From positions 121,272,001 to 121,336,000 of the forward strand of contig OX597818.1 of the NCBI GenBank assembly GCA_951406725.2: DNA of 64,000 nucleotides, read 5' to 3'. A model generated the notes under the pieces. The model was not told where the DNA came from. It saw only the letters and a program-made list of their open reading frames with translations, and made no database searches. This DNA is from Octopus vulgaris (lineage: Eukaryota). A program made the position numbers and the translations under genes. Shown piece after piece: positions 1 through 14,271 of this stretch (the first letter of the stretch is position 1; every line of letters starts with the position of its first letter).

Positions 1-49
1 TTGTATTCCACCTGCCTTCGTCTTTTGTTTATTTTCATAAAGCTTCCCG

Positions 50-4455: not shown

Positions 4456-5011
4456 TACTTTTCTACTCTAGGCACAAGACCCAAAATTTTGGGGGAGGGG
4501 CCACGACCCCAGTACGCAACTGGTACTTAATTTATCGACCCCGAAAGGATGAAATTCAAAGTCGACCTAGGCGAAATTTCAACTCAGAACGTATAGACAG
4601 TCAAAATACCTATTTCTTTACTGCCCACAAGGGGCTACACACAGAGGGGACAAACAAAGACAGACAAACGGATTAAGTCGACTATATCGATCCCAGTGCG
4701 TAACTGGTACTTATTTAATCGACCCCGAAAGGATGAAAGGTAAAGTTGATCTCGGCGGAATTTGAACTCAGAACGTAGCGGCAGGCGAAAATACCTATTT
4801 CTTTACTACCCACAAGGGGCTAAACACAGAGAGGACAAACGGATTAAGTCGATTACATCGACCCTAGTGCGTAACTGGTACTTAATTTATCGACTCCGAA
4901 AGGATGATAGGCAAAGTCGAACTCGGCAGAATTTGAACTCAGAACGTAGCGGCAGACGAAATACGGCTACGCATTTCGCCCGGTGTGCTAACGTTTCTGC
5001 CAGCTCGTCTT
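4456..5011 (-). mobile_element. tRNA-derived SINE family S1, trimeric form
   Basis: Head GAGCTGGCAGAAACGTTAG, B box GAGTTCAAATTCC, three copies of the CCTTTCATCCTTTCGGGGTCGAT core. Confidence 0.9.
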
Positions 5012-5390: not shown

Positions 5391-5861
5391 AAACTACAAT
5401 CAGTGCACATTCGGCGGAATAAATAACAAAGCAAACAAGAATATGGTATGAAGAGTTTTAAGTGCCTTAGAACCTGTGACAGTACCAGTTGATAGAATGT
5501 GGTCATTAGCCATCCTGTTCCCTTGGCCATCATGACTAGAGCCCCCATGATGAGAGTACCTATAAAGCTGTAGTAATGTAAGCAATATAAAAGTAAACCT
5601 TTACCCTGCTGTAGTATATCTATCTTCGTTTATCACTGGTCTTTGGTTAAAAAAATCACCATGTTAAATGAACCAATGATAACTGAATACTAAAACATAT
5701 GGAGGAAAATAGGTTTCGTTTTGAGACCCCAAGTTGCTCTGAACATTCTGGATGGTCACTAAGGCACGCTTTGGCGGTAAAACAGAATCTTTCATTGATC
5801 GCCGACCTATGTTATCACAGATCAATTCCTGATAAGTATAACACGATTCACAATTGAGCGT

Positions 5862-12669: not shown

Positions 12670-13248
12670 ATTCTTTTCTAGGTACAAGGCCCGAAATTTT
12701 AGGGCTGGGGGCCACTCGATTAGATCCACCCAGTACGCAAATGGTTCTTAATTTATGGACCCCGAAAGGATGAAAAGCAAAGTCGACCTCGGCGGAATTT
12801 GAACTCAGAACGTAACGGCAGACGAAATACCTATTTCTTTACTACCCACAAGGGGCTAAACACAGAGAGGACAAACAAGGACAAGCAAACGGATTAAGCC
12901 GATTATATCGACCCCAGTGCGTAACTGGTACTTATTTAATCGACCCCAAAAGGAAGAAAGGCAAAGTCGACCTCGGCGGAATTTGAACTCAGAACGTAGC
13001 GGCAGACGAAATACCTATTTCTTTACTACCCACAAGAGGCTAAACACAGAGAGGACAAACAAGGACAGATAGACGGATTAAGTCAATTATATCGACCCCA
13101 GTGCGTAACTGGTACTTAATTTATCGACCCCGAAAGGATGAAAGGCAAAGTCGACCTCGGTGGAATTTGAACTCAGAACGTAACGGCAGACGGAATACAG
13201 CTTAGCATTTCGCCCGGCGTGCTAACGTTTCTGCCAGCTCGCCGCCTT
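12670..13248 (-). mobile_element. SINE S1, trimeric form
   Basis: Same head-core-tailA-core-tailA-core-tailB layout as 4456-5011. Confidence 0.9.
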
Positions 13249-13279
13249 TACACAGTATAGATATCAATCTTTTATTGCT

Positions 13280-13392
13280 TAATACTTACTTCATATGATA
13301 TTCCATTGCAGTTAATACGCCAGCAATACTGTTAGGCATACTTACGACCAAACTTTTGAAATAATCCGGAGTTATCTCTTGAGTCAGTGTAA
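13280..13392 (-). pseudogene. Tc1-like transposase C-terminal fragment
   Basis: QEITPDYFKSLVVSMPNSIAGVLTAMEYHMK resembles the Tc1 end LVxSMPxRIxAVLxAxGxxTKY. Confidence 0.7.
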
Positions 13393-13634: not shown

Positions 13635-13830
13635 TGGTTTCAAATTTTGGCACAAGGCCAGCAATTTTGAGAGAAAAAGTAAGTCGATTGCATCGACCCC
13701 AGTACTCAACTGGTACTTATTTTATCAACCCCTAAAGAACGAAAGGCACTGTCAACATCGGCGGGATTTCAACTCAGAACGTAAAGACGAACGTATTGCT
13801 GCTAAGATTTCTACTGGGCATGCTAATACT
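13635..13830 (-). mobile_element. Diverged SINE S1 copy
   Basis: CGACCCCAGTAC...TTTATCAACCCC...TTCAACTCAGAACGT. Confidence 0.75.
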
Positions 13831-13899
13831 TAGTAATAGTAATATTAACTGCAAACGTCACTTAGACGTTTTAATCTTAGCGAACGTATATATATATAT

Positions 13900-14194
13900 A
13901 TATAAGTTCAGCAAAAATTTAGATTCAAATGAATATGGTACTTAATTTAGATGCACCAGAATTCTGTATGGTGTTATCCATAAAAATCCGTGAGGTGATT
14001 ATAATCAAAATAAGCAACAAGAATGACTCCGGTAATTTGGTACGATCGTTTCGTACTACATCATTTTATTAAATGTTGTAAGTATTACAACAGTTTTAAA
14101 ATGCTGTAGCACTCATCAGTCAATTATAGAGGTTTTCCATTAATACAAAAACGATCGTACCAAGTTACCGGAGTCATTCTTGTTGCTTATTTTG

Positions 14195-14200
<6 letters not shown>
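13900..14200. mobile_element. Partial fold-back non-coding element, family D (Penelope-like)
   Basis: Near-perfect ~52-bp inverted arms at ~14000-14051 and ~14149-14200; (TA)n on both flanks; HHR on minus strand. Confidence 0.8.
14035..14125 (-). ncRNA. Type I hammerhead ribozyme with extended stem II
   Basis: Minus strand TTGA-CTGATGA-GTGCTACA-G-CATTTTA-AAAC-TGTTGTAA-TAC-TTACAACA-TTTAA-TAAAATG-A-TGTAGTAC-GAAA-CGATCG-TA-CCAA. Confidence 0.85.

Positions 14201-14271
<71 letters not shown>

What the first reader, a model, noticed from the sequence alone, without database searches (positions are those of the whole stretch)
14035..14125. Hammerhead with a ~65-nt three-segment stem II and 8-nt palindromic stem III
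Seen: intact CTGATGA and GAAA cores separated by nested helices GTGCTACA/TGTAGTAC, CATTTTA/TAAAATG and TGTTGTAA/TTACAACA; stem III region ACGATCGT is a perfect palindrome followed by a GUA triplet; stem I has one mismatch. The other HHRs here have 3-5 bp stem II. Inference: an expanded domain that could supply tertiary contacts or a protein-binding site and would be missed by short-stem descriptors.
Basis: partly seen in the sequence, partly recalled or inferred. Interest (0 to 1): 0.72.

Follow-up and report, generated by a model that had tools for sequence, protein, structure and literature searches.

The report
Long-armed hammerhead of octopus retrotransposons
This is a damaged leftover end of a Penelope-type jumping gene, in what is likely an octopus genome; it carries a hammerhead (self-cutting RNA) motif predicted to cut only in pairs, and its unusually long 60-base second arm keeps its pairing and length across distant sister families, so the arm is likely functional rather than an accident.

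Summary
The motif is real, on the minus strand, with a 60-nt (not 65-nt) stem II. It is the 3' end of a Hydra-clade Penelope-like element (PLE): 5'-truncated, with a 52-nt inverted piece, between (TA)n tracts. This copy is likely inactive.

The long arm is not private. Sister subfamilies down to 61% endonuclease identity keep it at 55-63 nt, with compensatory changes in the basal and apical helices, while the upstream UTR diverges to background. The palindromic stem III is the known dimer signature of PLE hammerheads. Spacers of 50-65 nt are the commonest class of this hammerhead pattern in the genome (31,041 hits; control 815). Published Hydra hammerheads have 9-26 nt, and one spike-moss PLE has about 54 nt.

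No cleavage footprint was found and nothing was tested biochemically. Best reading: a dimer-dependent, protein-assisted PLE ribozyme whose long arm is likely a handle for the element's protein. This scan noted the same class before on other DNA. New variant of a known kind.

The parts
13903..14152 (-). 5'-truncated 3' end of a Hydra-clade Penelope-like element (about 250 nt: a little 3' UTR, hammerhead, short end, tail)
   Evidence: 97% identical over 279 nt to family copy L009; same family lies downstream of a GIY-YIG endonuclease in L023/L051
14037..14123 (-). Type I hammerhead ribozyme motif (predicted, cleavage untested)
   Evidence: model R1 (built from an alignment that includes this copy) 91.6 bits
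14120..14123 (-). Stem I 5' strand UUGA; family has UUGG, so G2.1 to A breaks the pair next to the cut site
   Evidence: (4 of 117 copies)
14113..14119 (-). Catalytic core box CUGAUGA
14053..14112 (-). Stem II, 60 nt: basal, middle and apical helices, 3-nt loop at 14082-14084; extra A at 14107 is private to this copy
   Evidence: fold z=-6.1; covariation
14065..14070 (-). AAUAAA hexamer in the 3' strand of stem II, ending 24 nt before the cut site (possible poly(A) signal, untested)
   Evidence: AAUAAA or AUUAAA in 44 of 47 lineage sequences against 2 of 27 unrelated long-stem motifs
14049..14052 (-). Catalytic core box GAAA
14042..14049 (-). Palindromic stem III/loop III ACGAUCGU, predicted 8-bp intermolecular helix of a dimer
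   Evidence: self-duplex -10.0 versus hairpin +2.4 kcal/mol; CGAUCG and CAAUUG covary
14041..14043 (-). GUA cleavage triplet; predicted cut between 14041 and 14040
   Evidence: sequence and hammerhead consensus
14037..14040 (-). Stem I 3' strand CCAA
13903..14000 (-). Optional tail of about 98 nt between the family's short 3' end (about 14000) and long 3' end (13903)
   Evidence: both ends recur among 94 sampled ends; the equivalent tail runs into the 5' UTR of the next unit in L117
14149..14200 (+). Inverted 52-nt copy of the short 3' end at the 5' junction; predicted to fold back over GAAAC-GUA and stem I
   Evidence: 98% identity; whole-insert fold -120 kcal/mol sequesters the cut site
13886..13904 (.). 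(TA)n target tract, left flank
14197..14266 (.). (TA)n target tract, right flank

Best explanation
This is the broken-off 3' end of a Hydra-clade Penelope-like retrotransposon, and its type I hammerhead is predicted to cut tandem element transcripts only as a dimer and likely with help from the element's own RT-endonuclease protein, for which the conserved 60-nt stem II is likely a binding handle. Shown: element identity, layout, conservation and covariation of the arm, two identical hammerheads flanking one ORF (L117). Inferred from PLE literature and folding energies: the two hammerheads of a tandem transcript swap strands through the palindrome and release a unit-length RNA (4,659 nt in L117). 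Inferred only: the arm, with the equally conserved stretch just downstream, forms the 3' module that the protein binds. This particular copy is likely dead (mismatch beside the cut site, fold-back arm, no ORF or partner).
For: Identity: RWK, DKT, CxCX5C, CxxC and CxH motifs in L118 match the Hydra definition; (TA)n targets, inverted 5' pieces and two 3' ends. Selection on the arm: 43 of 73 endonuclease-anchored loci gave this hammerhead, stem II 55-63 nt, while stop-to-ribozyme distance is 566-1,705 nt. Stem II identity between the young group and the three distant groups is 0.62-0.68, against 0.46-0.56 for upstream UTR windows and 0.47-0.49 for shuffles. 93% of cells paired, 9 of 21 pairs with both-side changes, slid controls 24-53%. 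On an endonuclease tree 12 of 15 internal-branch changes in stem II end paired (p=0.018 against a 50% null). Dimer: strand-swapped active dimer beats twice the best monomer in 10 of 11 sequences, and the active monomer is 2-8 kcal/mol above the monomer minimum in all 11. Precedent: the Anolis PLE hammerhead cleaves only with its protein (PMC11167929).
Against: No binding or cleavage data. No pile-up of 5' ends at the cut site: 0 of 94 ends at the site, 1 at +1. No significant pile-up at the base of stem II (p=0.13). Unrelated long-arm families share no obvious sequence, and arm length is labile between Hydra families (23, 39, 52, 73 nt), which fits a tolerant scaffold as well. The apical helix shows 3 inherited pair breaks. 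The middle helix slides in register and could not be scored by column. In Anolis, cleavage was not needed for insertion in vitro. The active dimer was the cofold minimum in only 1 of 11 sequences.
Confidence: 0.52

Rival explanations
1. Tolerant scaffold: stem II grew by slippage or fold-back duplication in AT-rich DNA, and selection only keeps it paired so that the core still folds; it has no job of its own.
For: Arm length varies from 23 to 73 nt among Hydra families, with 39 and 73 nt on sister branches and 23 and 52 nt in one clade; unrelated families share no obvious arm sequence; the same elements carry other AT-rich expansions (29% Asn linker; variable UTR). Stem II is known to tolerate large inserts in engineered hammerheads (recalled).
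Against: Length stays 55-63 nt within the lineage while the UTR changes up to threefold; no short-armed member among 43 loci; eight columns in or beside the apical helix and loop are invariant in 30 of 30 sequences; genome-wide hits peak at 50-65 nt (about 1,900 net hits per nt of spacer against 390-790 in the other bins).
Confidence: 0.27
2. Poly(A) switch: in this lineage the arm holds and partly masks an AAUAAA signal placed about 24 nt before the cut site and followed by CA and a GU/U-rich tract, so folding would decide between polyadenylation and read-through or ribozyme cleavage (like the HIV-1 polyA hairpin, recalled).
For: AAUAAA or AUUAAA, 22-26 nt before the cut, in 44 of 47 lineage sequences, switching between the two main signal variants in several subfamilies, against 2 of 27 unrelated motifs.
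Against: It is one inherited trait, not 44 events; UAAA is also held by pairing in the middle helix; it cannot explain long arms in unrelated families; no poly(A) loose end near the site among the rows shown for four contig sets (49 rows not shown, contigs are weak evidence).
Confidence: 0.12
3. Tertiary-contact domain: the bulge 5 bp up stem II, or a distal loop, docks on stem I and lets the ribozyme cut fast, even as a monomer.
For: An irregularity recurs 5-7 bp from the core in most subfamilies, about where canonical loop 2 sits; such helix I-II contacts speed up canonical hammerheads (PMC3088659 passages).
Against: Stem I is only 4-6 bp with no conserved internal loop; stem III stays 2 bp and palindromic, so the monomer is unfavourable; I found no conserved complementarity between the arm and the flanks (inspection).
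Confidence: 0.09

Closest known systems
Hammerheads of Hydra-clade Penelope-like elements, including Hydra-1_Obim of Octopus bimaculoides (Craig et al. 2021, PMC8557442; passages, section 11, File S2 read)
   Same: Type I topology, sense strand near the 3' end, 2-4 bp mostly palindromic stem III, (TA)n targeting, RWK/DKT/CxCX5C protein motifs. A near match of the published Hydra-1_oBim hammerhead (23-nt stem II) lies in this genome and falls on the same RT tree (L291).
   Different: Stem II is 55-63 nt against about 9-26 nt in the 26 Hydra rows of File S2 (my count); unit 4.7 kb with a 930-950 aa ORF and Asn-rich linker against 'generally <3 kb'; tail about 98 nt against 30-40 bp.
PLE-X1_sMoe and PLE-X1_sTam hammerheads of spike mosses (same File S2, flagged 'deviates from canonical structure')
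   Same: PLE hammerheads with a long spacer between the core boxes (about 54 and 48 nt by my count): a precedent for long arms.
   Different: Other PLE clade, endonuclease-less, rDNA-targeted; single consensus rows with no covariation or function discussed in what I read.
Minimal and palindromic-helix-III PLE hammerheads (Cervera and de la Pena 2014, PMC4209133, parts 1-2 of 4 read; Lunse et al. 2016 known only through review PMC6765202)
   Same: Short palindromic helix III, dimer-dependent weak cleavage, position in pLTRs, most copies solitary and truncated.
   Different: Their 'larger than usual' helix II is 6-8 bp; here it is about 22-24 bp in three segments.
Anolis Poseidon (PAc) hammerhead (PMC11167929; passages and half of the main text read)
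   Same: PLE pLTR hammerhead; model for protein-assisted cleavage and for two RT start sites defining a tail.
   Different: Poseidon clade; ORF starts inside stem II, whereas here the ATG lies about 190 nt after the cut (L117); protein help is shown there and only inferred here.

Membership tests
Type I hammerhead ribozyme | Core CUGANGA ... GAAA ... UH | tested here: met
   11 core positions intact in 55 of 68 young copies
Type I hammerhead ribozyme | Three helices, stem I open-ended, supported by covariation | tested here: met
   stems I, II basal, II apical and III 87-100% paired with both-side changes; the window copy itself has a mismatch at 1.1-2.1
Type I hammerhead ribozyme | Site-specific self-cleavage | not testable with these tools
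   no bench data; no genomic footprint at the cut
Canonical type I hammerhead (Rfam Hammerhead_1, retrozyme type) | About 4-bp helix II with loop 1-loop 2 contact; score above gathering | tested here: not met
   no hammerhead family hit at E<=10 or E<=0.5 on long-arm motifs; stem II 60 nt
Dimer-cleaving PLE hammerhead | Very short, palindromic stem III/loop III | tested here: met
   41 of 44 sampled 50-65 nt motifs palindromic allowing G-U
Dimer-cleaving PLE hammerhead | Cleavage needs a second copy | not testable with these tools
   energies only; two copies in one unit in L117 and L255
Penelope-like element (C-terminal EN+) | One ORF, RT then GIY-YIG endonuclease, upstream of the hammerhead on the same strand | tested here: met
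   (GIY-YIG E=0.0014, below Pfam's cut-off); no ORF at the window copy. Pfam found nothing on the whole L118 protein
Penelope-like element (C-terminal EN+) | pLTR partial tandems, inverted 5' pieces, optional tail | tested here: met
   L117 tandem; inversions and two 3' ends
Hydra clade | RWK motif; DKG changed to DKT; CxCX5C linker; CxxC and CxH around conserved E and N | tested here: met
   L118: RWK 26, DKT 113, CKCRIKSKC 807, CQLC 904, CVH 934; definition
Hydra clade | (TA)n insertion preference | tested here: met
Hydra clade | Groups with published Hydra RTs in a phylogeny | tested here: inconclusive
   tree of genome-internal RTs only, midpoint-rooted, no outgroup or published sequence; includes the Hydra-1_Obim-like L291
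Neptune/Nematis clade (my first guess) | DKG motif and CX2-5CxxC linker | tested here: not met
   DKT and CxCX5C instead
Naiad clade | N-terminal GIY-YIG | tested here: not met
   endonuclease is C-terminal
Non-LTR retrozyme | Non-coding tandem repeats of 170-400 nt units | tested here: not met
   solitary truncated end of a coding element

The most novel reading that the evidence does not exclude
Octopus Hydra retroelements have repeatedly built a two-turn regulatory domain onto hammerhead stem II, making long-armed, protein-gated dimeric hammerheads the largest ribozyme class of the genome (30,000-50,000 motifs). In this lineage the arm both docks the element's RT-endonuclease and masks a poly(A) signal aimed at the ribozyme's own cut site, so one hairpin chooses between mRNA and transposition template.
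Probability: 0.15. Interest if true: 0.8.

Novelty: new variant of a known kind. Interest (0 to 1): 0.5.

Why it matters
What hammerheads do in Penelope-like elements is an open question (PMC8557442: 'still unclear'; PMC11167929: protein-assisted, dispensable in vitro). A lineage that holds a 60-nt arm under selection, with near-intact tandem elements in the genome, gives a direct deletion test. It also shows that descriptor-based ribozyme censuses with short stem II limits can miss most hammerheads of one class in an animal genome: 80% of net pattern hits here have spacers over 25 nt. The window copy itself is an ordinary dead fragment.

Tried and rejected
Plus-strand reading: no core there. 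Rfam at gathering: 0 hits in the window; the MIR2606 hit at E=5.5e-7 is the fold-back, far below gathering. Neptune, Naiad and retrozyme assignments rejected (membership tests). Cleavage footprint in 5' ends: none; the excess at +1 to +10 (14 of 94) lies next to the search anchor and often at fold-back junctions on the CCGG palindrome, so I discount it. RT stalling at the base of stem II: odds 1.7, p=0.13. Sequencing runs: no RNA holder listed, all contigs; laying four guessed-RNA contig sets gave no start/end pile-up and no poly(A) end, which is uninformative. RNAalifold on A1 recovered only the apical helix and a competing hairpin over the cut site, not the basal helix. Structure-aware MAFFT was not installed, so the middle helix was judged from single-sequence folds only. 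Pairing of the apical helix with the conserved downstream CUUGUUGC tract: 5 bp in some subfamilies, absent in others, rejected. Private-mutation control (7 of 37 rare changes keep pairing) is biased to transversions, so I used a 50% null instead. Lunse et al. 2016 was not held. Sequence look-up in earlier scan notes found nothing. L265 (87-nt spacer 3.5 kb from an endonuclease) was left out as not shown to be one element.

Full report
Observation. The motif lies on the minus strand: CUGAUGA at 14119-14113, a 60-nt stem II, GAAA at 14052-14049, palindrome ACGAUCGU at 14049-14042 and GUA at 14043-14041. Other hammerhead-like motifs in the window have 12-22 nt stems II. Rfam gave no hammerhead hit here at gathering or at E<=10.

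What it sits in. The host genome is 2.8 Gb; a search with the 151-nt motif gave 1,361 first-look candidates, and the 40 scored were 97-100% identical. A 29-nt piece of the 3' end has 560 exact matches. Copies are 5'-truncated at many points, often with an inverted 3' piece, end at one of two 3' ends about 98 nt apart, and sit in (TA)n. [quoted passage not shown] Related ORFs of about 940 aa carry RWK, DKT, CxCX5C, CxxC and CxH, the defining motifs of the Hydra clade of Penelope-like elements (PMC8557442 section 11). I first guessed Neptune; earlier scan notes pointed to Hydra, and I checked it. L117 is a tandem: hammerhead at 941, ATG at 1206, hammerhead at 5600, unit 4,659 nt; its frame stops about 40 codons early. 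A near match of the published Hydra-1_oBim hammerhead is in L291, which with genome size makes an octopus host likely. The window insert is a 250-nt end plus a 52-nt inverted piece, with no ORF.

This copy versus its family. The extra A that makes the basal helix a perfect 8 bp is in 1 of 117 distinct fetched copies, and the G2.1 to A change in 4 of 117 (one search agrees). The family has a perfect UUGG/CCAA stem I and a 5-bp basal helix followed by a bulge. The inverted piece is predicted to pair over the cut site. This copy is therefore likely inactive.

Is the long arm selected? An endonuclease search gave 150 scored hits at 60-100% identity. Of 73 loci examined (three re-fetch places already held), 43 gave this hammerhead downstream, with stem II 55-63 nt; the other 30 gave none or another family's by my filter. 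I aligned the window and 29 of the 41 distinct long-stem hits, dropping 2 from other families and 10 young copies that were near-duplicates or had deletions. On 21 named pairs, 93% of cells pair and 9 pairs change on both sides; slid controls give 24-53% (pair 38-56 is weak and discounted). On an endonuclease tree, 12 of 15 internal-branch changes in stem II end paired after merging one root artefact (p=0.018 against 50%), 21 of 26 over all helices (p=0.001), and 5 of 12 stem II pairs switch between Watson-Crick types; 3 inherited breaks fall in the apical helix. All 18 stems II folded singly give one long hairpin, but the middle helix slides and was not scored. Between the young group and the distant groups stem II is 62-68% identical, the 40 nt downstream 67-69%, and upstream UTR windows 46-56%, close to shuffles. 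The conserved 3' module thus starts at the ribozyme.

How common? The pattern CTGANGA-N-GAAAC-NNNN-GTH gives 13,440 hits for N=10-25 (reversed control 845), 10,982 for 26-49 (1,274), 31,041 for 50-65 (815) and 12,936 for 66-95 (1,216). Net, 47% fall at 50-65 and 80% above 25. Limits: pattern only, some hits are other repeats, and minimal hammerheads without loop III, which are short-armed in this window, are excluded. Of 44 motifs in 40 loci that I picked for diversity from the first 100 listed 50-65 hits, 41 are palindromic with G-U allowed, 38 have 3 or more bp of stem I, and 24 fold at z<=-2. On an RT tree without outgroup, arms are 55-63 nt in this lineage, 39 and 73 nt in two sisters, and 52 and 23 nt in another clade: fixed within a lineage, labile between lineages. 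Most of the RT loci fetched for that tree gave no hammerhead by my filter.

Mechanism. The 2-bp palindromic stem III is the known mark of dimer cleavage (PMC4209133; PMC6765202). Here it covaries (CGAUCG and CAAUUG), and the strand-swapped dimer is more stable than two best monomers in 10 of 11 sequences, though it is the cofold minimum in only 1. A tandem transcript such as L117 holds both partners. The Anolis PLE hammerhead cuts only with its protein, and cutting was not needed for insertion in vitro (PMC11167929). Against any in vivo role of cleavage in templating: no 5' ends pile up at the cut (0 of 94). Rivals are a tolerant scaffold, a masked poly(A) signal (44 of 47 lineage sequences against 2 of 27 unrelated) and a tertiary contact.

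Comparison with print. File S2 of PMC8557442 lists Hydra hammerheads with about 9-26 nt between the boxes, and two spike-moss PLE motifs with about 48-54 nt flagged as deviating (my counts). 'Large' or 'long' helix II in other papers means 6-8 bp. Seven literature searches found no description of a long-armed class in cephalopods; Lunse 2016 and several supplements were not seen and may bear on this. Papers seen: PMC4209133 parts 1-2 of 4; PMC8557442 passages, section 11, supplement searches and part 2 of 59; PMC11167929 passages and section 3 part 2; bioRxiv 10.64898/2026.07.22.740005 part 1 of 5; PMC3088659, PMC6765202, PMC7229834, PMC13725137 and PMC6155905 passages. This scan holds 16 earlier findings with the same words, in at least 3 genomes; they are leads, not support.

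Verdict. A real, covariation-supported structural variant of a known ribozyme in a known retroelement clade, very abundant and apparently undescribed as a class, with function of the arm untested. Interest 0.5.

Noticed in passing
L259 (G000:C1:16526000-16529600), L260, L263: Tandem arrays of 532-594 nt units, each with an identical long-armed hammerhead (49, 70, 50 nt stem II) and no Hydra ORF match in the fetched stretch; look like retrozyme-type non-autonomous arrays or repeated pLTRs.
   Followed up: partly
L117, L118 ORFs, residues about 500-800: Hydra ORFs carry long Asn-rich (29% N) low-complexity linkers between RT and endonuclease, making units of 4.7 kb, larger than published Hydra elements.
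   Followed up: no
window 14040-14056 (-) and alignment A1 columns 79-95: A competing hairpin pairs the 3' base of stem II (GUAY) with the cut site (GUAC) in the 30 aligned sequences; could keep the monomer off. Not kept in the related CUGAAGA-UUGC subfamilies.
   Followed up: partly
window 22910 (+), 22481 (-), 37687 (-), 46081 (-), 1019 (-), 1197 (+), 7189 (-), 36367 (-), 11937 (-): Short-stem hammerhead-like motifs of at least three other repeat families, mostly minimal types without loop III; the two tested were not found by Rfam even at E<=10.
   Followed up: partly
window 14025-14032 (-) and copies L138, L153, L196, L198: Very short inverted insertions often fold back at the GACUCCGGAGUC/CCGG palindrome 8-12 nt after the cut site.
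   Followed up: no
window 12700-13280, 13669-13826, 4635-4961: Tandem and dispersed copies of a 171-184 nt SINE-like repeat next to the element; unrelated to it.
   Followed up: no
L117:669-745 and L121:654-752: Long-armed hammerheads of different families sit within 300-750 nt of this lineage's hammerhead, suggesting nested insertion into each other's (TA)n flanks.
   Followed up: no
L104:659-1112: Fragment of eukaryotic large-subunit rRNA downstream of a sister-family copy (Rfam 140.7 bits).
   Followed up: no
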